The notes beneath the pieces are model-generated. The model did not search any database, was not told the DNA's origin, and worked only from the letters and a program-made list of their open reading frames with translations. A DNA stretch of 59,326 nucleotides, counting the filler. It is 5 parts of 5 records of this genome, joined end to end, with 100 filler letters (N's around TTAATTAATTAA, not from the genome) between each part and the next. Parts side by side here need not be neighbours in the genome. Positions count along the whole stretch, not along the records: positions 1 to 10,108 come from SRR2962707_5533; 4 more parts are not named here. The stretch is one strand, 5' to 3'. Position numbers and translations under genes: made by a program. Positions 1,942-53,605 of this stretch are shown here, in pieces (position 1 is the stretch's first letter; every line of letters starts with the position of its first letter).

Positions 1942-3075
1942 CTAGCGGTTCTCGGCGATGGCGCCGATCAGCGCTGCGCCCAGCGTGGCCCCGCCACCAT
2001 CGCGCGGCCAGCACAGCCAGAAATTCATGTCATGGCGCCGGGGCAGGGCCAGTTGCGCCAGTTCCTCGCGAATGCGGCTGACCGAGGTTTGGGGCAGGAT
2101 CGACACAAAGCCGTGGTGCAGCACCAGATTGAGAATGACTGGAATGGAGTCGATTTCGATCATCTGCAGCGCGTCTCGCTCGATGTCGCTGAGATAGGTC
2201 GCAAGAATTTCGTTGATTGATTGCCGCAGGCCCGAGCGCGCGCTGGGCACCGCCAGCGGTGCGCCCAATAGCGCATCGCCAATGCTGGCGTGCCCCGCGC
2301 GAACGCCGACCACCGCCAATGGCGACGTGGCGACGATCTCGCCATCCAGGTCGGGGGGGAGGCGTGCGGTATCGAGGAAGGCCACATCGAACAAGCCGCT
2401 CTTGAGACCCGCCATAAGCTGGTCGGCCGTGGTCGAACTGACCAGCAGTGGGGCGCGGGGACGCTCGGCCAGCCAGCGCGCCGCCAGATTGGCCAATTGC
2501 CGGGCAATCTCGCTCTCATAGCCCAGTGGAATGACCGAGCCGAGCCGCGCCGTTGCTGCTGCCTTGCGAAACCGCTCATCGGAGGCCCCTGACAGTTCCC
2601 GCCAGACAGCCAGCAGGGCTTCGGCCCGCATCTGCAACGTCTTGCCCTCGGGCGTCAGTCGCGAGCCGCCACTGCTGCGCTGCAATAGTGTCTGGCCCAG
2701 CGTGGCTTCGAGTTGTGCCAGTTGGCGCGTCAGCTGCGGCTGTCCCAGCCCCATGGTGCGTGCCGCGCGCCGGATACTGCCCACACTGGCCACCTGAATG
2801 AAGCGCTCAAGCGCGTCGAGTTTGATGGCGTGATGCGGCGACACGGCCTGCGCCAGTTGTGCTGCCTGTTTGATGGCCGGCTCCAGCCGCACCGCTTCAA
2901 GACTGGCGACCAGGCCTGAGCCGGCGCGCTCGATTAGCCCGATCGAGACTTCTGCTTCAAAGCGGGCGATAGCGGCGGCAATTGTGGACGCGGGCCGGCT
3001 CAGCACTCTGGCGGTGCCGCGCACGCTGCGGGTCCGCAGAACGGAATCGACGGCGATCAGCGTAGCGGTATCCAT
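1942..3075 (-). CDS. LysR-family regulator with two tandem N-terminal HTH domains
   Basis: HTH1 aa ~1-60 (SVRGTARVLSRPASTIAAAIARFE), HTH2 aa ~84-145 (SIRRAARTMGLGQPQLTRQLAQLEATLGQTLLQRS), then a LysR substrate-binding domain. Confidence 0.88.
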   Translation of the reverse strand: MDTATLIAVDSVLRTRSVRGTARVLSRPASTIAAAIARFEAEVSIGLIERAGSGLVASLEAVRLEPAIKQAAQLAQAVSPHHAIKLDALERFIQVASVGSIRRAARTMGLGQPQLTRQLAQLEATLGQTLLQRSSGGSRLTPEGKTLQMRAEALLAVWRELSGASDERFRKAAATARLGSVIPLGYESEIARQLANLAARWLAERPRAPLLVSSTTADQLMAGLKSGLFDVAFLDTARLPPDLDGEIVATSPLAVVGVRAGHASIGDALLGAPLAVPSARSGLRQSINEILATYLSDIERDALQMIEIDSIPVILNLVLHHGFVSILPQTSVSRIREELAQLALPRRHDMNFWLCWPRDGGGATLGAALIGAIAENR

Positions 3076-3179: not shown

Positions 3180-4739
3180 ATGAATGATCTGGCCATGACA
3201 GTGCGCGGCGACCCCATCATCCTCAACGGCAAGCCGCTGAGCTTTGCCGACATTGCGCGAATTGGCCGTCGCTCGGCCCGTCTGGTTGCCAATGACGACG
3301 CGCTGGTGCGCGTGGCAAACGCCCGTACGGTGGTCGAAGACGCAATAGCCGGCGGACAGGCCGTTTATGGAGCCACCACCGGCGTCGGCGCCATGAAGGA
3401 TGTCGAGTGGACCCCCGACCAGCTCGATGCGTTCAATCTCGGGCTGGTGCGCGCGCACCATTTTGGCACGGGTGATGCCTTTTCCAGTGAGATCGTCCGC
3501 ACCGCAATGGCCATTCGCGTCAATATGGCGCTGACCGGACGCGTTGGCTGCACCACCGATCTGGTTCACGCCTATCTTGCTTTGCTGTCCACCGACGTCG
3601 TGCCGGTCGTGCGGCGCACCGGCTCGATCGGCTGTGCCGATATCGGCCTGATGGGCCAGATCGGTGCGGTGCTGACCGGTGCAGGGGAGGCCACCTTCAA
3701 CGGTCAGCGCCTGCCCGCAGCCGAGGCGCTCTCACAGGCCGGTCTGAACGCCTTTCGACTGGCGCCACGCGATAGTCTGGCGTCGATCTCCACCAACGCC
3801 GTCGGCTATGCCGCGGCCGCCAACGCCATCCGCGAGGCCGCCAGAACCGTGCGTGTCATGTTGGCGACCGGCCTGACCACGGCAGGGGCGCTCGGCGCGT
3901 CGCGCGATCCGTGGAAAGCGGTGGCTCATGTTGGAACCGAACGCGAGGCGGGGATCGGGGCCTGGCTGTATTTCAATGCGATGGGCTGGGACTGGCCCAA
4001 TGCCACCCATATTCAGGATCCGCTTAGCCTGCGCATGATGAGCCAGGTTTTTGCCACCGGCTTTGAAACCCTGGTTGCCGCTGGCAAGACATTGCTGGCT
4101 GCCACCGGTCGGACGGATGACAATCCGGTCGTGGCTGGCGGGCAGGTGCTGACCTCTGGCGGTTCGCTGCCGCTGGATGTGACGGTCTTCATGCAAACCG
4201 CGCAATTGGGGCTGGCCCATATCGCCCGCAATTCATTTAACCGCTGCGTATTGCTGGGCAATGGTGGCCGGCGTGACCTGCCGGTCAATCTGGTGGCGCC
4301 CGGATCGATCGCCACCGGCTTTGGCCCCATCATCAAACTGGCTGGGGAACTGTTTGCCCGCGTGCTGAGCATGACCAACCCCATTTCAGCCAACTCCATG
4401 GTGGTGGCGGGTGGGCTGGAGGATGAAGCGGCTTTCCTGCCACTGGTCGTGGAACGCTTTGAGCGCCAGGTCATGGCGCTCAACCGCCTGTCAGCACTCG
4501 AAGGCATACTGGCGGCGCAGGCCATGGACATCTCGGGCGACCGTCCGGGTAATGTGCCGGGCATCATCTACCAGCTCGTGCGTCAGCACGCTGAATACTA
4601 CACGGTGGATCGGCCACTATCGGCCGAAGTTGAGGCTGTCGAACACGCACTCGGTTCTGACGCAATTATGAACGAACTAATCGCTCACTCAGCGATTATG
4701 GAATTGGACGAGTTTTTCGCCCTGGGCCCTGTCGAATAG
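3180..4739 (+). CDS. Aromatic amino-acid ammonia-lyase (HAL/PAL) superfamily protein, MIO-less, ergothionase-like
   Basis: Tyr-loop VYGATTGVGAMKD, GSIGCADI in place of GSVGASGDL, QDPLSLR, DDNP and GGLEDE. Confidence 0.85.
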   Translation: MNDLAMTVRGDPIILNGKPLSFADIARIGRRSARLVANDDALVRVANARTVVEDAIAGGQAVYGATTGVGAMKDVEWTPDQLDAFNLGLVRAHHFGTGDAFSSEIVRTAMAIRVNMALTGRVGCTTDLVHAYLALLSTDVVPVVRRTGSIGCADIGLMGQIGAVLTGAGEATFNGQRLPAAEALSQAGLNAFRLAPRDSLASISTNAVGYAAAANAIREAARTVRVMLATGLTTAGALGASRDPWKAVAHVGTEREAGIGAWLYFNAMGWDWPNATHIQDPLSLRMMSQVFATGFETLVAAGKTLLAATGRTDDNPVVAGGQVLTSGGSLPLDVTVFMQTAQLGLAHIARNSFNRCVLLGNGGRRDLPVNLVAPGSIATGFGPIIKLAGELFARVLSMTNPISANSMVVAGGLEDEAAFLPLVVERFERQVMALNRLSALEGILAAQAMDISGDRPGNVPGIIYQLVRQHAEYYTVDRPLSAEVEAVEHALGSDAIMNELIAHSAIMELDEFFALGPVE

Positions 4740-4820
4740 AATTTGCGATCTGGCTCATTTCTACCAAGACGCTACGTTAGGGACAGCCGGGTAACAGACC
4801 CGGAGAAAACGGAGAAACCA

Positions 4821-5732
4821 ATGCGCCTCACATCCACGCTTTTGAGCGCAGTCGCTGCGCTCGCCATTTCCGTCACGGCCGCAAACGCTCAAGTGGTTGT
4901 ATCGTCCAAGATCGACACTGAAGGTGGCGTTCTGGGCAACATCATCAAGCAGGTACTTGAGGCCAACGACATTGCCGTCGAAGACCGCATCCAGCTTGGT
5001 GGCACGCCCATTGTGCGTCAGGCCATCACCGCGGGCGAGATCGACATCTACCCCGAATATACCGGCAACGCCGCCTTCTTCTTCGAAAAGGCCGATGATC
5101 CGCTCTGGAACGACGCTGCACTGGCTTATGCCGAAGCCGCCAAGCTCGATTTTGAGGCCAACAATATCGTCTGGCTGACCCCATCGCCCGCCAATAACAC
5201 CTGGGCCGTGGCCATCCGGTCCGACGTTGCCGAAGCCAATAGCCTGAACACCTTCAGCGAATTCGGCGCCTGGGTTGCTGGCGGTGGCGAGGTCAAGCTT
5301 GCCGCATCGGCCGAGTTCGTCAATTCGCCCGCCGCGCTGCCAAAATTCCAGGAAGTCTATGGCTTCTCCTTGACCCCTGATCAGCTCATCACGCTGTCGG
5401 GTGGCGACACCGCGGCCACCATTGCCGCTGCCGCCCAGCAGACCAATGGCGTCAATGCCGCCATGGTCTATGGCACCGATGGCGGCATTGCCCCGTCCGG
5501 CCTCAAGGTGCTCGAGGACGACAAGGGTGTGCAGCCCGTCTATCAGCCTTCGCCGATCATCCGCGCTGACGTGTTGGCGGAATACCCGCAGATCGAAGAA
5601 CTGCTCAAGCCCGTCTTTGAAGGCCTGACGCTCGAAGTGCTCCAGGACCTCAATGGTCGCGTGCAGGTCGGTGGCGAAGCCTCTGCCGCCGTGGCAACCG
5701 ACTATCTGACTCAGGGCGGTTTCCTGCAGTAG
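4821..5732 (+). CDS. osmF: Osmoprotectant/betaine-type ABC substrate-binding protein (OsmF/YehZ-like)
   Basis: Signal peptide, VVVSSKIDTEG, IDIYPEYTGN, ANNTWA and MVYGTDG. GGAGA RBS before ATG 4821. Confidence 0.85.
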   Translation: MRLTSTLLSAVAALAISVTAANAQVVVSSKIDTEGGVLGNIIKQVLEANDIAVEDRIQLGGTPIVRQAITAGEIDIYPEYTGNAAFFFEKADDPLWNDAALAYAEAAKLDFEANNIVWLTPSPANNTWAVAIRSDVAEANSLNTFSEFGAWVAGGGEVKLAASAEFVNSPAALPKFQEVYGFSLTPDQLITLSGGDTAATIAAAAQQTNGVNAAMVYGTDGGIAPSGLKVLEDDKGVQPVYQPSPIIRADVLAEYPQIEELLKPVFEGLTLEVLQDLNGRVQVGGEASAAVATDYLTQGGFLQ

Positions 5733-5740
5733 GCCGAACC

Positions 5741-5765
5741 GGGGTGAGGGCAACGCGCTCACCCC
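5741..5765 (+). terminator. Intercistronic hairpin after the SBP gene (mRNA stabiliser or partial terminator)
   Basis: GGGGTGAG-N9-CTCACCCC stem with no U-tract. Confidence 0.45.
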
Positions 5766-5832
5766 ATTCCTTGCTCCGGCGGAGTAGGGGCCCTTTCAAG
5801 GCGAAGCATCTACTGACCGTTCTGGAGCCAGC

Positions 5833-7026
5833 ATGAGCATAGCCGACACCCCCACTGCCGCCACGCGACCCGTTAGGTTCGCGCTCGACAAGCTCGGCGT
5901 CATGATCGCCCTGATTGCTGCCGCCGGCGCCGCGCTACCCTTCGCCCTGTTCCGCGCCAACCGCATCGTGCTCGGCGAAACCAAAGCCCTCTTCGAAGCA
6001 CTCCCCGGCCAGCTTACTGCGCTGCTCATACTCGCATTGCTCACCGGTGTCGTCGTGGCGCTGCTGCGCTTTGCCCCACTGACCAAACTGATCGTTGGGT
6101 TTTTCATCCTCGCCGTGCTGTTCGTCCTGATGGGCCAATCAGCGGCCTATCTGACGCCCGAAGGTAATACCTTCGCCCGCGTCTCGCCCGGCGCCGGTTT
6201 CTGGCTGCTGGTCTTCGCCTTCGCCTTGCTGGTGACCGACGCCCTGACCCGGCTGCGCTTCAAGCCGCTGACACGCATTGCCATTCTGATCGCGGTCGCT
6301 GCCGCCATGGCGCTGCTATTGTGGAGCGGCGGCTGGGATCAGCTTTCCATGCTCAAGGAATATGCCAATCGCGCCCCGGCCTTCTGGTCCGAAGCCCAGG
6401 CGCATCTGGTGCTGGCCTTCGGCTCGGTCGCCATCGCCACGCTGGTCGGCCTGCCGCTGGGCATTCTTTGCTACAAGGTCAAACCCCTGCGCGCCGGCGT
6501 GCTCAATGTCCTCAACATCGTCCAGACCATCCCCTCAATTGCCCTGTTCGGCCTGCTGATCGCCCCACTGGCCTGGATCGCCGCCAATATTCCGGGCGCC
6601 TCGGCCATCGGCATTTCGGGCATTGGCACGGCGCCCGCTCTGGTGGCGCTATTCGCCTATTCGCTGCTGCCCATCGTCTCCAACACCGTGGTGGGCCTGC
6701 AAAGCGTCTCGCCCGCTGCCATTGATGCGGCGCGCGGCATGGGCATGACCGATTTCCAGCGCCTCAGGGCGGTTGAACTGCCGCTGGCCTTCCCGGTGAT
6801 CCTGACCGGCATCCGCATCGTGCTGGTGCAGAATATCGGCCTGACCACCATTGCCGCGCTGATCGGCGGCGGCGGCTTTGGTGTCTTCGTGTTTCAGGGC
6901 ATTGGCCAGACGGCCATGGATCTGGTGCTGCTGGGGGCTGTGCCGACAGTCGCCCTGGCTTTTGCTGCCGCTGTGGTGCTCGACGCCCTGGTGGAAATGA
7001 CCGCGCGCGAGGGGAAGCGCTCATGA
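5833..7026 (+). CDS. yehY: ABC transporter permease (YehY-like)
   Basis: Long hydrophobic N-terminus, QTIPSIALFGLL, and EAA loop DAARGMGMT...VELPLA. Confidence 0.8.
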   Translation: MSIADTPTAATRPVRFALDKLGVMIALIAAAGAALPFALFRANRIVLGETKALFEALPGQLTALLILALLTGVVVALLRFAPLTKLIVGFFILAVLFVLMGQSAAYLTPEGNTFARVSPGAGFWLLVFAFALLVTDALTRLRFKPLTRIAILIAVAAAMALLLWSGGWDQLSMLKEYANRAPAFWSEAQAHLVLAFGSVAIATLVGLPLGILCYKVKPLRAGVLNVLNIVQTIPSIALFGLLIAPLAWIAANIPGASAIGISGIGTAPALVALFAYSLLPIVSNTVVGLQSVSPAAIDAARGMGMTDFQRLRAVELPLAFPVILTGIRIVLVQNIGLTTIAALIGGGGFGVFVFQGIGQTAMDLVLLGAVPTVALAFAAAVVLDALVEMTAREGKRS

Positions 7027-7958
7027 TTGAGATCGACGACCTCACCAAGAGCTATGACGGCACCGTGGTGGTGGACCATGTGACTCTGACCATTCAGCCC
7101 CACACCATTTGCGTGGTGGTCGGCACCTCGGGCTCGGGCAAGACCACGCTGATGCGCATGATGAACAAGCTGGTGACGCCCACTTCGGGCACAGTGCGCA
7201 TCGATGGTCAGGATATCGCCGATATCCCCGCCTATGAACTGCGCCGCCGCATCGGCTACGCCATTCAAGGGCATGGTCTGTTTCCCCACCGTACCGTGGG
7301 CCAGAACATTGCCACCGTGCCCAAGCTGGCCGGCTGGGACAAGGCGCGCATCGCCCGCCGCGTCGACGAACTGATGGCGCTGTTCCAGCTCGATCCCGGC
7401 CAGTTCCGCGATCGGCTTCCGCACGAGCTCAGCGGCGGCCAGCAGCAGCGCGTTGGCGTAGCCCGTGCTTTGGCGGCCGAGCCCAATATCCTGCTGATGG
7501 ACGAGCCCTATGGCGCGCTTGATCCGGTGATCCGCGCCAAGGCACAGGAAGATTTGCTGGCCATTCAGCGCAAATTCGGCACCACGGTCGTGCTGGTTAC
7601 CCACGACATGGAAGAGGCCATTCACCTCGGCCACACTATCGCGGTGATGGACGAGGGAAAGCTGCTGCAATGTGCAGCGCCCGCCGAGATCATCGCCAAT
7701 CCTGCAACGCCCTTTGTCGCCGAACTGATCGGCACCAGCGAGCGTCCCTTCCGCCTGCTCTCGCTGTCCAAGGTTGCCGATCACATTGAGCCCGGCGAGG
7801 CCCCCGGCGAGCCCATCGCTGCACAAGCCTCCCTGCGTGATGCCTATGCCGAGCTGCTCTGGTCGCGTCGGCCCGCTCTGCCGGTCCTGCGCGATGGCCA
7901 GATTGTCGGTCAGGTCACGCTGGACGCGCTGGCCAAACTGGCGGCCAGACCACAATGA
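7023..7958 (+). CDS. yehX: ABC transporter ATP-binding protein (YehX-like)
   Basis: Walker A GTSGSGKTT, LSGGQQQRVG, Walker B LLMDEP, C-terminal CBS-like remnant. Confidence 0.88.
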   Translation: MIEIDDLTKSYDGTVVVDHVTLTIQPHTICVVVGTSGSGKTTLMRMMNKLVTPTSGTVRIDGQDIADIPAYELRRRIGYAIQGHGLFPHRTVGQNIATVPKLAGWDKARIARRVDELMALFQLDPGQFRDRLPHELSGGQQQRVGVARALAAEPNILLMDEPYGALDPVIRAKAQEDLLAIQRKFGTTVVLVTHDMEEAIHLGHTIAVMDEGKLLQCAAPAEIIANPATPFVAELIGTSERPFRLLSLSKVADHIEPGEAPGEPIAAQASLRDAYAELLWSRRPALPVLRDGQIVGQVTLDALAKLAARPQ

Positions 7959-8713
7959 CCACGGGTAATCTCCTCCGACTGCTGGCGTTTCTGGTGCTGG
8001 GCCTGTTTCTGGCCAGCCCCGAGCTGTTCAGCGGCTTCTTCAGCCTGTTCACCAAAAACAGCCAGCCCGCCATCTACAATCAGGGCAGCCTGCTCGACAT
8101 CACCCTCAATCACCTGGCCATCGTGGCCGCCGCGACCGCAGCCTCCACCATCATCGCCGTGGGCCTGGCCATCATCGTAACCCGGCCGTTTGGCGCCGAA
8201 TTCCTGCCGCTGTCGCGCAGTCTCGCCAATGTCGGGCAGACCTTTCCGCCCGTGGCCGTGCTGGCGCTGGCGGTGCCCATGCTGGGCTTCGGCACCGCCC
8301 CAACCCTGGTGGCGCTGTTTCTCTACGGTCTGCTGCCCATTTTCGAGAATACGCTGACCGGCCTGACCAATCTGCCATCCGCGGTGACCGACGCGGCCAA
8401 GGGCATGGGCATGACGGGCTGGCAGCGTCTGCTCAAGGTCGAACTGCCCCTGGCCCTGCCGGTCATTCTGGCCGGTATTCGACTTTCCGTGGTCATCTCG
8501 CTGGCCACTGCCACCATCGGCTCGACCGTCGCTGCACGGACCTTGGGGGAGGTCATCATTGCTGGCCTGCTTTCGAGCAACACCGCCTTTGTCTTGCAGG
8601 GCGGGCTGATCGTCGGGGTGCTGGCCGTGTTGATTTATGACGGCCTGTCGGCGCTGGAACGCTTTTTGATGGCCCGTACCGGGCAATTGGGCCGGGCGGC
8701 GGCCACATCATGA
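7955..8713 (+). CDS. yehW: ABC transporter permease (YehW-like)
   Basis: GQTFPPVAVLAL and EAA loop DAAKGMGMT...VELPLA. Confidence 0.8.
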   Translation: MTTGNLLRLLAFLVLGLFLASPELFSGFFSLFTKNSQPAIYNQGSLLDITLNHLAIVAAATAASTIIAVGLAIIVTRPFGAEFLPLSRSLANVGQTFPPVAVLALAVPMLGFGTAPTLVALFLYGLLPIFENTLTGLTNLPSAVTDAAKGMGMTGWQRLLKVELPLALPVILAGIRLSVVISLATATIGSTVAARTLGEVIIAGLLSSNTAFVLQGGLIVGVLAVLIYDGLSALERFLMARTGQLGRAAATS

Positions 8714-8733: not shown

Positions 8734-10092
8734 ATGTCTGACTTCGATCTCGTCCTGGCGGGCACTGTTGTGCTGCCAGATCTGATACTCGACCATGGCT
8801 ACGTCGCGATACGCGATGGCAAGATCGTCCATGTCGGCGAAGGCACGCCGCCCCATGCCCATGAACGCCATGAACTGGGCGACGCGCTGATCCTGCCCGG
8901 CGCCATCGACGCCCAGACCCATTCGCTCAGCCAGCGCGACCAGGAAGACTTCATCTGGTCCACCCGCTCGGCCGCTGCCGGTGGTGTCACCACCATTGTC
9001 GATATGCCCTATGACGAGGGCAATCTGGTCGCTTCAGCGGCCGCAGTGCGCACCAAGGTCGCGCTGGCCCAACCGCAGGCCCGGGTGGATTTCGCGCTCT
9101 ATGGCACCGTGGTGCCCGATGAGGGCGCCAGCCGCATCGCCGAGCAGGTTGAAGCCGGTGTCGCTGCCTTCAAGTTCTCCACCTTCGGCACCGATCCGGT
9201 CCGCTTCCCGCGTATCCCCGCAGCTTTGCTCGAGGAGTGCTTTGCGGCTATTGCGCCTACCGGACTGACCGCCGGCGTCCATAACGAAGATGACGAGGCC
9301 GTGCGCGCGGCAATGGCCAGGGTCAAGGCGCTTGGCATAACTGACTTTCGCGCCCATGGCCTGAGCCGCCCACCGCTGACCGAATTACTGGCCAGCCTGC
9401 AAATCTATGAAACCGGTGCCGCCACCAGTTGCCCCGCCCATGTTGTGCATTGCTCGCTCGGCCGGGGCTACGACATTGCCCGGTCCTATCGCGAGCAGGG
9501 CTTTGCAGCCACCATCGAATGCTGCATCCATTATCTGACGCTGGACGAGGAAAATGATGTCGCCCGGCTCGGCGGTAAAGCCAAGATCAACCCGCCCATC
9601 CGTCCGCGCGCCGAGGTTGAAAAGCTCTGGGAGCATGTGCGGGCCGGTAATGTCACCATGGTCTCGACCGACCATGTGAGCTGGTCGGAAAACCGCAAGA
9701 CCAACCCCGACATGCTGGCCAATGCCTCAGGCGTACCGGGCCTTGAGGTTATGGTGCCGCTTTTCATCAAGGGCGCCTTGGAGCGCAATATCCCGCTGAC
9801 CTGGGCCGCGAAGCTGATGGCCGAAAACCCGGCAAGACACTTCCGCATCGAACATTCAAAAGGCGCACTCAGCGTCGGCAAGGATGCCGACATCACCGTG
9901 CTGTTCCCGCGCTCCAAACGCTACGACGCTGCCGAGAGCGGCCACAACGTGGTGGGCTGGTCGCCCTATAACGGCATCGAACTGCCCTGGACGGTCGGCC
10001 TGACCTATCTGCGCGGCCAGCAGGTTTTCGACGGCACCAATGTCGGCGAGCCGGGTTTCGGAAGGTTCGTGCGGCCGGAGGTAGGCGCGTGA
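8734..10092 (+). CDS. Cyclic amidohydrolase (allantoinase/dihydroorotase/hydantoinase family)
   Basis: PGAIDAQTH, AAAGGVTTIVDMP, AAFKFS, GVHNE, HVVHCS, KINPPIR, STDH, GKDADI. The last base of the stop codon coincides with the adapter sequence. Confidence 0.85.
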   Translation: MSDFDLVLAGTVVLPDLILDHGYVAIRDGKIVHVGEGTPPHAHERHELGDALILPGAIDAQTHSLSQRDQEDFIWSTRSAAAGGVTTIVDMPYDEGNLVASAAAVRTKVALAQPQARVDFALYGTVVPDEGASRIAEQVEAGVAAFKFSTFGTDPVRFPRIPAALLEECFAAIAPTGLTAGVHNEDDEAVRAAMARVKALGITDFRAHGLSRPPLTELLASLQIYETGAATSCPAHVVHCSLGRGYDIARSYREQGFAATIECCIHYLTLDEENDVARLGGKAKINPPIRPRAEVEKLWEHVRAGNVTMVSTDHVSWSENRKTNPDMLANASGVPGLEVMVPLFIKGALERNIPLTWAAKLMAENPARHFRIEHSKGALSVGKDADITVLFPRSKRYDAAESGHNVVGWSPYNGIELPWTVGLTYLRGQQVFDGTNVGEPGFGRFVRPEVGA

Positions 10093-10108
10093 GATCGGAA
10101 GAGCGTCG
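10092..10108 (+). other. Untrimmed Illumina TruSeq adapter
   Basis: Exact AGATCGGAAGAGCGTCG at the contig end. Confidence 0.93.
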
Positions 10109-10208
10109 NNNNNNNNNNNNNNNNNNNNNNNNNNNNNNNNNNNNNNNNNNNNTTAATTAATTAANNNNNNNNNNNNNNNNNNNNNNNNNNNNNNNNNNNN
10201 NNNNNNNN
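10109..10208. other. Artificial contig linker
   Basis: 44 N + TTAATTAATTAA (stops in all six frames) + 44 N. Confidence 0.98.
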
Positions 10209-15332: not shown

Positions 15333-15432
15333 NNNNNNNNNNNNNNNNNNNNNNNNNNNNNNNNNNNNNNNNNNNNTTAATTAATTAANNNNNNNNNNNN
15401 NNNNNNNNNNNNNNNNNNNNNNNNNNNNNNNN
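15333..15432. other. Artificial contig linker
   Basis: 44 N + TTAATTAATTAA + 44 N. Confidence 0.98.
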
Positions 15433-19751: not shown

Positions 19752-19816
19752 CAACTTTTGGTTGCATTTTTTCAATAGTGGGCTTAACACAACTCATAGT
19801 TGTTAGGAGAGCCGCT

Positions 19817-20410
19817 ATGATTATCCATGTAGAAGAGCGTGATCGCGCACGCTACGCCGATGAACTCCATCAATATTTCAAGCTGCGTAAGAAGGTTTTT
19901 TACGACGAGCTAAACTGGGACGTCATTGCCGATGGCGACATTGAGCGTGACCTGTTGGATGATGCCCCATGCACCTACACACTTTATTTGGGCGATGATG
20001 GCACCGTTCAAGGCGGCGCACGGCTCATTCCCACAACACAAACAACATTGCTGGAAATGGCTTTTGACGGGCTTGTTCCCGAAGATATTTCCTTCAGATC
20101 GCCCACAATCTGGGAAAGTTCGCGTTATTGCGTCAATCATGACACCGCAAAAAGCCGCATGTCTTCCGGCGCAAAAAGAGCGACCCTCGGCATTTCCATC
20201 GGCAATGTTGATTACGCTCTAGCCAACGGTATCACCCATTACATCGCAGTCGTTGAGGCCCGCCTCTTCCGCTTTTCACAAAACTACAATGCCGACGTTG
20301 AAATTTTGGGCGAAAAGAGAATTGGCGATTGCGACGTTATCTGTGCGCTTTACACCATGTCTGAAAAGACACTGGACACGATTAAATATCTGCGCCCAAT
20401 GGTGACATGA
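19817..20410 (+). CDS. luxI: Acyl-homoserine-lactone synthase
   Basis: LRKKVFYDELNW, ERDLLD, GGARLIPT and WESSRYCV. AGGAG RBS before ATG 19817. Confidence 0.93.
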   Translation: MIIHVEERDRARYADELHQYFKLRKKVFYDELNWDVIADGDIERDLLDDAPCTYTLYLGDDGTVQGGARLIPTTQTTLLEMAFDGLVPEDISFRSPTIWESSRYCVNHDTAKSRMSSGAKRATLGISIGNVDYALANGITHYIAVVEARLFRFSQNYNADVEILGEKRIGDCDVICALYTMSEKTLDTIKYLRPMVT

Positions 20411-35947: not shown

Positions 35948-36047
35948 NNNNNNNNNNNNNNNNNNNNNNNNNNNNNNNNNNNNNNNNNNNNTTAATTAAT
36001 TAANNNNNNNNNNNNNNNNNNNNNNNNNNNNNNNNNNNNNNNNNNNN
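35948..36047. other. Artificial contig linker
   Basis: 44 N + TTAATTAATTAA + 44 N. Confidence 0.98.
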
Positions 36048-53505: not shown

Positions 53506-53605
53506 NNNNNNNNNNNNNNNNNNNNNNNNNNNNNNNNNNNNNNNNNNNNTTAATTAATTAANNNNNNNNNNNNNNNNNNNNNNNNNNNNNNNNNNNNNNN
53601 NNNNN
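53506..53605. other. Artificial contig linker
   Basis: 44 N + TTAATTAATTAA + 44 N. Confidence 0.98.

What the first reader, a model, noticed from the sequence alone, without database searches (positions are those of the whole stretch)
3180..4739. HAL-superfamily lyase with Cys-Ala replacing the MIO-forming Ala-Ser-Gly
Seen: at 3621-3644 the motif is G-S-I-G-C-A-D-I, one residue shorter than G-S-V-G-A-S-G-D-L, so a canonical MIO cofactor cannot form. The Tyr loop is kept (Y63 in VYGATTGVG), with a Lys ten residues later (K73); QDPLSLR replaces HAL QDAYSLR. Known: ergothionases show this tripeptide-to-dipeptide shortening, as I recall with Glu in the first position. Inference: a Cys there points to a distinct subfamily with a different leaving group or substrate. 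Automatic annotation would wrongly call it hutH.
Basis: partly seen in the sequence, partly recalled or inferred. Interest (0 to 1): 0.8.

Follow-up and report, generated by a model that had tools for sequence, protein, structure and literature searches.

The report
Devosia ergothionase mislabelled as histidine ammonia-lyase
This gene most likely encodes an ordinary ergothionase, the enzyme that starts bacterial breakdown of the antioxidant ergothioneine, from an alphaproteobacterial branch of the family that databases still label as histidine or aromatic amino acid lyase.

Summary
ORF 3180-4739 (+) encodes a 519-aa PF00221 lyase whose loop reads G-S-I-G-C-A-D-I (3621-3644), one residue shorter than G-S-x-G-A-S-G-D, so MIO cannot form.

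The inferred different substrate is not supported. The best sequence and fold match is T. denticola ergothionase (6s7j; model TM 0.90/0.94, rmsd 1.8 Å). The catalytic Tyr (Y63), the carboxylate and imidazole binders, and the Lys that binds the ergothioneine thiolate (K386) are all kept.

The gene heads an operon with an OsmF-type betaine ABC importer and ErtD. In orthologues from Devosia, Rhizobium, Acetobacteraceae and others the operon continues with ErtE, thiohydantoin desulfurase and thiourocanate hydratase. Here it stops only because the contig ends at 10108; the window is several contigs joined by linkers.

The dipeptide is variable. I counted 22 types among 104 short-loop representatives, and Cys is replaced by Thr in 22 of 120 close homologues in the same operon.

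The Cys-Ala enzymes do form a well-supported alphaproteobacterial clade. It is sister to the Glu-type clade that holds the T. denticola-like and Burkholderia ert-cluster lyases, and it has its own signature (C152, S329, N370, E416).

Verdict: a new member of a known kind, of low to moderate interest.

The parts
3180..4739 (+). ergothionase-type (MIO-less) trimethylammonia-lyase, 519 aa (P0001)
   Evidence: ORF and translation. PF00221 274 bits. Best PDB match 6s7j ergothionase, E 4.8e-55. Model pLDDT 94.9 with best fold match 6s7j, rmsd 1.8 Å.
3621..3644 (+). shortened loop G148-S-I-G-C152-A153-D-I155 in place of the MIO-forming G-S-x-G-A-S-G-D
3366..3398 (+). Tyr loop: Y63 (predicted beta-proton acceptor) to K73
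   Evidence: Y63 is invariant in 19/19 Cys-Ala-clade, 22/22 Glu-clade and 12/12 MIO rows. K73 is present in 18/19 and 21/22 rows of the two MIO-less clades and in 0/12 MIO rows.
4014..4034 (+). Q279-D-P-L282-S-L-R285, the carboxylate-binding segment; L282 replaces HAL Tyr280
   Evidence: Residue roles come from the preprints read.
4335..4337 (+). K386, equivalent of T. denticola ergothionase Lys384 (thiolate binder)
   Evidence: HMMER alignment to 6s7j. K in 19/19 and 22/22 rows of the two MIO-less clades and 0/12 MIO rows. K in 120/120 close homologues. Role.
4164..4427 (+). clade-specific residues S329 (4164-4166), N370 (4287-4289) and E416 (4425-4427), beside conserved E414 (4419-4421)
   Evidence: Each is 19/19 in the Cys-Ala clade, against F19/22, F18/22 and H10/22 in the Glu clade.
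1942..3075 (-). divergent LysR-family regulator; the ORF as listed is probably too long at its 5' end, since the HTH starts at residue 86
   Evidence: PF00126 and PF03466. Present upstream in some relatives (L001, L002) and absent in others.
4743..5732 (+). OsmF/YehZ-type quaternary-amine substrate-binding protein, candidate ergothioneine binder
   Evidence: NF049931 484.5 bits, cut-off 400. PDB 4nd9/5teu E about 1e-136; EgtUC E about 1e-25. Adjacent to the lyase in 64 of 80 related loci.
5833..8713 (+). ABC importer: permease 5833-7026, ATPase 7023-7958, permease 7955-8713, with overlapping stops and starts
   Evidence: PF00528, PF00005; proV subfamily 272 bits. Junction sequences.
8734..10092 (+). 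ErtD, hydantoin-5-propionate amidohydrolase
   Evidence: NF058538 766.2 bits, cut-off 600.
10092..10208 (.). end of contig: Illumina adapter remnant (10092-10108) followed by an N44-TTAATTAATTAA-N44 linker (10109-10208). The operon is cut here.
   Evidence: Synteny with relatives stops at 10092. No ErtE, desulfurase or hydratase anywhere in the window.

Best explanation
The gene encodes a cytoplasmic ergothionase (ergothioneine trimethylammonia-lyase, the ErtA step) of a Devosia species. Ergothioneine is probably imported by the co-transcribed OsmF-type ABC system.

Proposed mechanism. The lyase binds the substrate carboxylate through Q279, R285 and N315. It binds the imidazole through H93 and E414, and the 2-thiolate through K386. 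Y63 takes the beta-proton and trimethylamine leaves without any MIO cofactor, giving thiourocanate. Thiourocanate hydratase, thiohydantoin desulfurase, ErtD (present here) and ErtE then convert it to glutamate, H2S, CO2 and NH3.

The Cys-Ala dipeptide only fills the place of the missing MIO. It is the usual residue pair of an alphaproteobacterial sister clade of the Glu-type ergothionases, not a sign of new chemistry.

Shown here: sequence, loop, residue conservation, fold, operon context and phylogeny. Inferred: the activity, the residue roles (transferred from T. denticola ergothionase through the preprints read) and the transporter's ligand.
For: 1. Family and fold. PF00221. hutH models score far below cut-off. 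The best solved relative is ergothionase 6s7j at E 4.8e-55, against 1e-36 for the best HAL. The model (pLDDT 94.9, pTM 0.94) superposes on 6s7j at TM 0.90/0.94 and rmsd 1.8 Å, against rmsd 3.0-3.5 Å for P. putida HAL.

2. Residues. Y63, H93, D280, R285, N315, E414 and D415 are conserved. K386 aligns with Td Lys384. The histidine-betaine lyase Swoo_3913 has Asn there, and SO_3299 has Gln.

3. Context in the window: betaine-type ABC importer and ErtD over the curated cut-off, tightly spaced.

4. Context in orthologues. In L036, L050 and L074 the genes after the lyase score over cut-off for ErtD (NF058538), ErtE (NF058540), thiohydantoin desulfurase (NF058529) and thiourocanate hydratase (NF058530). 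The S-methyl variants stay below cut-off. Of 80 loci, 58 have ErtD, 59 ErtE, 59 the desulfurase and 53 the hydratase. Even 34-38% identical clade members (Acetobacter, Gluconobacter, Microvirga, Thioclava) precede the same four genes.

5. Of 5 sampled Pseudomonadota genomes (out of 401) with a hydratase over cut-off, 4 carry a 66% identical Cys-Ala lyase nearby.

6. Trees. The Cys-Ala clade (SH-aLRT 100) is sister (99) to the clade with a T. denticola-like protein (P0151, 594 bits to 6s7j) and a Burkholderia ert-cluster lyase (P0307).
Against: No activity was measured, and no member of the Cys-Ala clade that I could verify has been characterised.

The clade has a long stem (0.58-0.61 changes per column) and four invariant differences near active-site positions (C152, S329, N370, E416). 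Altered specificity or kinetics is therefore not excluded.

The window itself holds only ErtD of the four downstream enzymes, because the contig ends there, and no whole genome is held.

Of 69 Cys-Ala loci with at least 8 kb on both sides, 19 have none of the four ert genes nearby. In 4 of 5 such genomes tested, a hydratase over cut-off lies elsewhere in the genome.

Residue roles are taken from two preprints' accounts of Maurer et al. 2019, which I could not read.
Confidence: 0.85

Rival explanations
1. It is a trimethylammonia-lyase whose preferred substrate is an ergothioneine derivative (ergothioneine sulfonate or sulfinate, S-methyl-ergothioneine, selenoneine), or it has a wider scope than Glu-type ergothionases. 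On this reading the Cys-Ala clade's rebuilt pocket reflects that difference.
For: The clade-specific invariant residues C152, S329, N370 and E416 sit at or next to positions that are active-site residues in HAL and ergothionase. The clade has a long stem branch. NCBIfam holds separate models for S-methyl-thiourocanate enzymes, so derivative pathways exist. A paper on an ergothioneine sulfonate pathway is cited in PMC13405746, but I could not read it.
Against: The hydratases and desulfurases next to orthologues score over cut-off for the thiourocanate and thiohydantoin models and below cut-off for the S-methyl models. A thiohydantoin desulfurase fits a thione substrate, not a sulfonate. K386 is kept.
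Confidence: 0.08
2. It is a histidine betaine (hercynine) or N-methyl-histidine-betaine lyase, like Swoo_3913 or SO_3299.
For: It has the same MIO-less fold and the same trimethylammonium leaving group. The betaine-type importer would fit hercynine equally well.
Against: Those enzymes carry Asn or Gln where this protein has Lys (K386). They are periplasmic and coupled to flavocytochrome reductases, whereas this protein has no signal peptide and sits with ErtD. Hercynine would give urocanate, which needs no ErtD, desulfurase or thiourocanate hydratase.
Confidence: 0.03
3. It is a true histidine ammonia-lyase (HutH) or another MIO-dependent aromatic amino acid lyase, as many database names say.
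For: Database names. It is homologous along its whole length to HAL.
Against: There is no Ala-Ser-Gly and the loop is one residue short. HAL Tyr280 is Leu here (L282). The hutH models score 200-217 bits against cut-offs of 524-539. No hut genes lie beside it.
Confidence: 0.01

Closest known systems
[quoted passage not shown]
   Same: MIO-less, with a loop of the same length. The fold matches at TM 0.90/0.94 and rmsd 1.8 Å. The Tyr base, the Lys ten residues later, QDPLSxR, TDDNP, E-D and the thiolate-binding Lys (Td K384 = K386) are all kept.
   Different: Only 27-28% identity. The loop dipeptide is Glu-Gly there and Cys-Ala here. It belongs to the sister clade, placed through P0151, which scores 594 bits to 6s7j. 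S329, N370 and E416 here are mostly F, F and H in that clade.
Burkholderia ert-cluster ergothionase. The characterised enzyme is ErtA of Burkholderia sp. HME13 (BAM63550), whose sequence I did not obtain. I compared a stand-in: the lyase of the Burkholderia sp. JSH-S8 plasmid ert cluster (P0307).
   Same: It lies in a cluster with homologues of ErtD, ErtE, the DUF917 desulfurase and the hydratase. The loop is MIO-less and of the same length, and K73 and K386 are kept.
   Different: 32% identity. The loop is Glu-Ala. It has an N-terminal signal-peptide-like segment. The gene order differs, with MFS transporters and a porin in place of the ABC importer. That P0307 represents the HME13 enzyme is an assumption.
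Shewanella trimethylammonia-lyases: SO_3057 (ergothionase), Swoo_3913 (histidine betaine lyase) and SO_3299 (N(pi)-methyl histidine betaine lyase)
   Same: All are MIO-less PF00221 lyases that release trimethylamine. Like SO_3057, this protein is reported or seen to keep every residue listed for ergothionase activity.
   Different: The Shewanella enzymes are periplasmic and feed respiratory flavocytochromes. Swoo_3913 and SO_3299 have Asn or Gln at the Lys384 position. I did not have their sequences, so no direct alignment was made.
Histidine ammonia-lyase HutH (P. putida, PDB 1b8f)
   Same: Same superfamily and overall fold (TM 0.86). Shared residues are the Tyr base, H83-like His, Q/R/N carboxylate binders and E414.
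   Different: HAL has Ala-Ser-Gly (MIO), Tyr280, Phe329 and no Lys at the 73 or 386 equivalents. Identity is 23-25% and rmsd 3.0-3.5 Å.

Membership tests
Ergothionase (ergothioneine trimethylammonia-lyase) | PF00221 fold closest to solved ergothionase | tested here: met
   6s7j is the best match both by sequence (E 4.8e-55) and by fold (rmsd 1.8 Å).
Ergothionase (ergothioneine trimethylammonia-lyase) | No Ala-Ser-Gly (no MIO); loop one residue shorter | tested here: met
   Absence of the cofactor itself is inferred from sequence and was not measured.
Ergothionase (ergothioneine trimethylammonia-lyase) | Catalytic Tyr plus carboxylate (Q/R/N) and imidazole (H, E) binders | tested here: met
   Y63, Q279, R285, N315, H93 and E414. 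Roles are as listed in the preprints.
Ergothionase (ergothioneine trimethylammonia-lyase) | Lys equivalent to Td Lys384, which binds the thiolate | tested here: met
   K386; 120/120 close homologues.
Ergothionase (ergothioneine trimethylammonia-lyase) | Genomic link to thiourocanate hydratase, thiohydantoin desulfurase, ErtD and ErtE | tested here: met
   ErtD is in the window. All four are present in orthologous loci. In the window the rest is cut off by the contig end.
Ergothionase (ergothioneine trimethylammonia-lyase) | Converts ergothioneine to thiourocanate and trimethylamine | not testable with these tools
   Needs an enzyme assay.
Ergothionase (ergothioneine trimethylammonia-lyase) | Glu at the first loop position, as in T. 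denticola and the Burkholderia stand-in | tested here: not met
   Cys here. But Glu is not general even in the Glu-type clade (16 of 22 rows; P0151 has Met-Ser), so I do not treat it as a defining feature.
Histidine ammonia-lyase (HutH) | Ala-Ser-Gly, Tyr280, and a score over the curated hutH cut-off | tested here: not met
   (200 against 539 bits).
Histidine betaine trimethylammonia-lyase (Swoo_3913 type) | Neutral residue (Asn or Gln) at the Lys384 position; periplasmic; coupled to urocanate reductase | tested here: not met
   K386. No signal peptide is visible in the N-terminus. No reductase lies in the operon.

The most novel reading that the evidence does not exclude
The alphaproteobacterial Cys-Ala clade is an ergothionase variant with a rebuilt leaving-group pocket. 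The acidic residue that Glu-type enzymes place where MIO would sit (position 152) is lost. Phe329 and Phe370 become Ser and Asn, and a new invariant Glu appears at 416, next to the imidazole-binding E414. This could move the counter-charge for the trimethylammonium group. It could also change specificity, for example by accepting oxidised or selenium forms of ergothioneine, or make the enzyme redox-sensitive through Cys152.
Probability: 0.12. Interest if true: 0.5.

Novelty: new member of a known kind. Interest (0 to 1): 0.25.

Why it matters
It corrects an annotation. About 300 alphaproteobacterial species genomes carry this loop type, under names such as histidine ammonia-lyase or aromatic amino acid lyase, and no NCBIfam model names the lyase.

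Recognising these genes as ergothionases widens the known spread of ergothioneine degradation and trimethylamine formation in soil and plant-associated bacteria. A 2026 paper (passages read) still describes ergothionase as restricted to a few genera.

The clade signature (C152, S329, N370, E416) gives enzymologists a natural test of what the residue at the former MIO site does. The linked OsmF-type ABC system is a candidate ergothioneine importer, only distantly related to EgtUC by sequence (E about 1e-25).

Tried and rejected
- Whole-genome search of the window's own assembly: no genome is held. The missing ert genes could not be sought outside the window.
- Literature search was swamped by 'ertapenem' because of the term 'ertA', and was useless.
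- Maurer 2019, Beliaeva 2021 and Yan 2022 are not held. Muramatsu 2013 was never looked up and is known only from citations. Residue roles and the list of characterised enzymes come second-hand.
- Cluster look-ups of 20 representatives gave only generic names.
- tblastn of P0001 against plasmids gave one close hit (Ochrobactrum, 64%) and otherwise distant HALs.
- A locus search with P0131 returned only its own genome.
- I did not obtain the sequences of Td_ETL, BAM63550, SO_3057, SO_3299 or Swoo_3913 as stored proteins, so the trees use stand-ins (P0151, P0307). No Shewanella enzyme is placed.
- I considered that the absence of ErtE, desulfurase and hydratase after ErtD was a deletion. I rejected this on finding the adapter and contig linker at 10092-10208.
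- I considered Cys152 as a catalytic nucleophile. I rejected this as unlikely because Thr or Ala replaces it in orthologues within the same operon.
Full report
**Observation.** The ORF at 3180-4739 (+) is open and encodes 519 residues. The loop G148-S-I-G-C152-A153-D-I155 is encoded at 3621-3644, with C152 = TGT at 3633-3635. Against MIO enzymes the loop is one residue short: RTGSIGCA-DIG against EKGSLGASGDLAP. It is not an error. Of the 120 closest homologues listed (of 505 with E ≤ 0.001), 97 read GSIGCADIG, 22 GSIGTADIG and 1 GSIGCADLG. None has ASG.

**Family and fold.** The protein matches Pfam PF00221 (274 bits). It scores only 200-217 bits on the NCBIfam histidine ammonia-lyase models, whose cut-offs are 524-539, and no NCBIfam model names it. 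Its best solved relative by sequence is T. denticola ergothionase 6s7j (E 4.8e-55). The best HAL reaches 1e-36. An AlphaFold2 model built on an 86-row alignment has pLDDT 94.9 and pTM 0.94. Its best fold match is again 6s7j (TM 0.90/0.94, rmsd 1.8 Å over 494 columns, 27-28% identity). P. putida HAL structures align at rmsd 3.0-3.5 Å.

**Active-site residues.** Two preprints by Bertsova et al. give the relevant roles. I read the abstracts and sections 3, 15 and 19 of 10.64898/2026.04.22.720169 and section 14 of 10.1101/2025.08.13.670108.
- MIO-less lyases release trimethylamine.
- A conserved Tyr takes the beta-proton.
- Gln, Arg and Asn bind the carboxylate, and His and Glu bind the imidazole.
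- Lys384 of the T. denticola enzyme binds the ergothioneine thiolate and is essential.
- The histidine-betaine lyase Swoo_3913 has Asn at that position, and the N(pi)-methyl-histidine-betaine lyase SO_3299 has Gln.

In P0001 all of these residues are present: Y63, Q279, R285, N315, H93, E414 and K386. K386 aligns with the Lys of FGTIQK in 6s7j. I could not read the primary paper (Maurer et al. 2019), so the roles are second-hand.

**Context in the window.** A LysR-family gene lies divergently upstream (1942-3075, -). Downstream, tightly spaced or overlapping, come five genes:
- an OsmF-type binding protein (4743-5732; NF049931 484.5 bits, cut-off 400);
- a permease (5833-7026);
- an ATPase (7023-7958);
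- a second permease (7955-8713);
- ErtD, hydantoin-5-propionate amidohydrolase (8734-10092; NF058538 766.2 bits, cut-off 600).

The binding protein is close to solved betaine binders of Alphaproteobacteria (4nd9, 5teu; E about 1e-136) and only distantly related to the ergothioneine binder EgtUC (E about 1e-25).

**Why the operon stops at ErtD.** An Illumina adapter remnant sits at 10092-10108, directly at the ErtD stop codon. An N44-TTAATTAATTAA-N44 linker follows at 10109-10208. The same linker recurs at 15333-15432, 35948-36047 and 53506-53605. The window is therefore several contigs joined end to end. Synteny with relatives stops exactly at 10092. ErtE, desulfurase and hydratase homologues are found nowhere in the window. 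The break is an assembly artefact, not biology. No whole genome is held.

**Context in relatives.** A locus search returned 80 of 208 relatives, all Devosia-like (72-90% identity) or Rhizobium/Shinella-like (65-68%).

In Devosia sp. Naph2 (L036), Devosia sp. CN2-171 (L050) and Rhizobium esperanzae (L074), the genes after the lyase score over the curated cut-offs:
- ErtD (NF058538, 765-785 against 600);
- ErtE (NF058540, 578-593 against 520; L036 and L050 only, as the L074 ErtE homologue seen was not among the ORFs scanned);
- thiohydantoin desulfurase (NF058529, 582-603 against 440);
- thiourocanate hydratase (NF058530, 1026-1058 against 930).

The S-methyl variants of the last two models stay below their cut-offs.

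By tblastn (≥45% identity, ≥60% coverage), 64 of the 80 loci have the binding protein, 58 ErtD, 59 ErtE, 59 the desulfurase and 53 the hydratase. Many of the misses are loci cut short by contig ends.

A second search, seeded by the loop pattern itself, found 297 relatives in 185,579 species genomes. The 80 shown are all Alphaproteobacteria. Even members only 34-38% identical to P0001 (Acetobacter, Gluconobacter, Komagataeibacter, Microvirga, Thioclava, Celeribacter, Oharaeibacter) stand directly before the same four genes. Those genes are 49-84% identical to the Devosia ones.

Of 69 such loci with at least 8 kb on both sides, 47 have three or more of the four genes and 19 have none. In 4 of 5 genomes of the latter kind, a hydratase over cut-off lies elsewhere.

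In a sample of 401 Pseudomonadota genomes, 5 have a hydratase over cut-off. The sample included one unpublished genome, G388, which gave only a sub-cut-off match. Of those 5, 4 have a 66% identical Cys-Ala lyase within the 20 kb fetched. The fifth (G295) has no ergothionase-like lyase; its best match is 26% identical.

**Is Cys special?** I aligned 125 full-length 50%-identity representatives. Of these, 21 have an MIO-length loop (ASG 17, ACG 2, SSG 2) and 104 have the short loop. The short loops carry 22 different dipeptides: EA 17, AS 14, AA 12, CA 11, MA 6, VA 6, QA 5, EG 5 and others. Lys at the 386 position occurs in 87 of the 104 short-loop rows and in 0 of the 21 MIO-length rows.

Within the orthologous operon, a Devosia subgroup has Thr in place of Cys (13 of 80 loci; 22 of 120 proteins). 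Kaistia has Ala-Ala and one representative has Cys-Gly. An essential catalytic Cys is therefore unlikely.

**Phylogeny.** A FastTree tree (132 rows) and an IQ-TREE quick tree (73 rows, LG+G4) agree.
- The Cys-Ala proteins form one clade (support 100 in both; stem 0.58-0.61).
- This clade is sister (97 and 99) to a clade with mostly Glu-Ala or Glu-Gly loops.
- The sister clade contains P0151, which scores 594 bits to 6s7j and carries Met-Ser.
- It also contains P0307, the lyase of a Burkholderia sp. JSH-S8 plasmid ert cluster. P0307 has the loop GSIGEADI, is 32% identical to P0001 and scores 276 bits to 6s7j.

P0151 and P0307 are stand-ins. I did not hold the sequences of the characterised T. 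denticola, Burkholderia HME13 or Shewanella enzymes.

Both clades share K73, K386 and L282 (Tyr in HAL), which the MIO enzymes lack. The Cys-Ala clade has its own invariant residues. In 19 rows against 22 Glu-clade rows:
- C152 (C17, T1, A1) against E16;
- S329 (19/19) against F19, aligned with HAL Phe329;
- N370 (19/19) against F18;
- E416 (19/19) against H10;
- W245 and W272 (19/19 each).

That HAL Phe329 lies beside MIO is recalled, not tested. PDB titles show only that F329 mutants of HAL were studied.

**Most likely function and mechanism.** See the best explanation above: a cytoplasmic ergothionase fed by the operon's ABC importer. Elimination is started by Y63, with trimethylamine as a leaving group good enough to need no MIO. 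K386 holds the thiolate. The product thiourocanate goes to the hydratase, the desulfurase, ErtD and ErtE. The activity, the residue roles and the transporter's ligand are inferred.

**Comparison and novelty.** The gene works like, and passes the sequence-level membership tests of, ergothionase. It fails those of HutH and of the histidine-betaine lyases. It belongs to a sister subfamily of the enzymes I could place by stand-in.

Whether a Cys-Ala enzyme has already been assayed is open. PMC13405746 (passages read) lists Agrobacterium radiobacter among organisms with ergothionase, citing Yan et al. 2022, which I could not read. Rhizobium species do carry Cys-Ala lyases.

I searched the held library with 'ergothionase' and with 'thiourocanate', 'thiourocanic acid', 'ergothioneine sulfonate' and 'ergothioneine sulfonic acid'. 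Among the papers I opened, nothing discusses a Cys-Ala loop. Most of the listed papers were seen only as listings, so this is weak evidence of absence.

I therefore rate it a new member of a known kind. The finding is useful for annotation and offers a modest enzymological lead in the clade signature.

Noticed in passing
window 10092-10208, 15333-15432, 35948-36047, 53506-53605: The window is a chain of contigs joined by N44-TTAATTAATTAA-N44 linkers. An Illumina adapter remnant (10092-10108) abuts the ErtD stop codon. Gene neighbourhoods across these points are not real.
   Followed up: yes
L039, L043-L045, L047-L050, L052-L054, L057, L068 (Devosia loci, 73-75% identical lyases): A Devosia subgroup carries GSIGTADIG (Thr for Cys) in the same operon. 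That is 13 of 80 loci and 22 of 120 listed homologues.
   Followed up: yes
window 4743-8713: An OsmF/YehZ-type ABC importer is co-located with the lyase in 64 of 80 related loci. It is a candidate ergothioneine importer, only distantly related to EgtUC (E about 1e-25).
   Followed up: partly
G001:C1:3559886-3561488 (Devosia sp. A8/3-2; L085): The thiourocanate hydratase gene of this genome matches the model in three separate pieces, 1-115, 113-494 and 493-535. It looks frameshifted or broken.
   Followed up: no
It may use thiourocanate made by others or another lyase.
   Followed up: partly
L112, L113, L117, L122-L127 and others (Rhizobium and Neorhizobium loci): In 19 of 69 Cys-Ala loci the lyase stands without ert genes within about 9 kb; in L117 and L125 it follows ubiE-ubiB. 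In 4 of 5 such genomes tested the hydratase lies on another contig.
   Followed up: partly
L180 (Burkholderia sp. JSH-S8 plasmid, CP110394.1 489401-514489): This ert cluster has a different layout: ErtE-ErtD divergent from LysR-desulfurase-hydratase-MFS-lyase-porin. The lyase has a signal-peptide-like N-terminus, and the cluster is flanked by a Tn3 transposase and recombinase genes.
   Followed up: partly
window 1942-3075 (-): The LysR ORF as listed has 85 residues before its HTH domain, so the true start is probably about 250 bases further in. The regulator is present upstream of the lyase in only some relatives (L001 and L002 yes; L027, L017, L008, L015 and L062 no).
   Followed up: no
window 19778-20410 (+): An acyl-homoserine-lactone synthase-like ORF (TraI-type models, 92-95 bits, below cut-off) lies on a different contig piece from the finding.
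   Followed up: no
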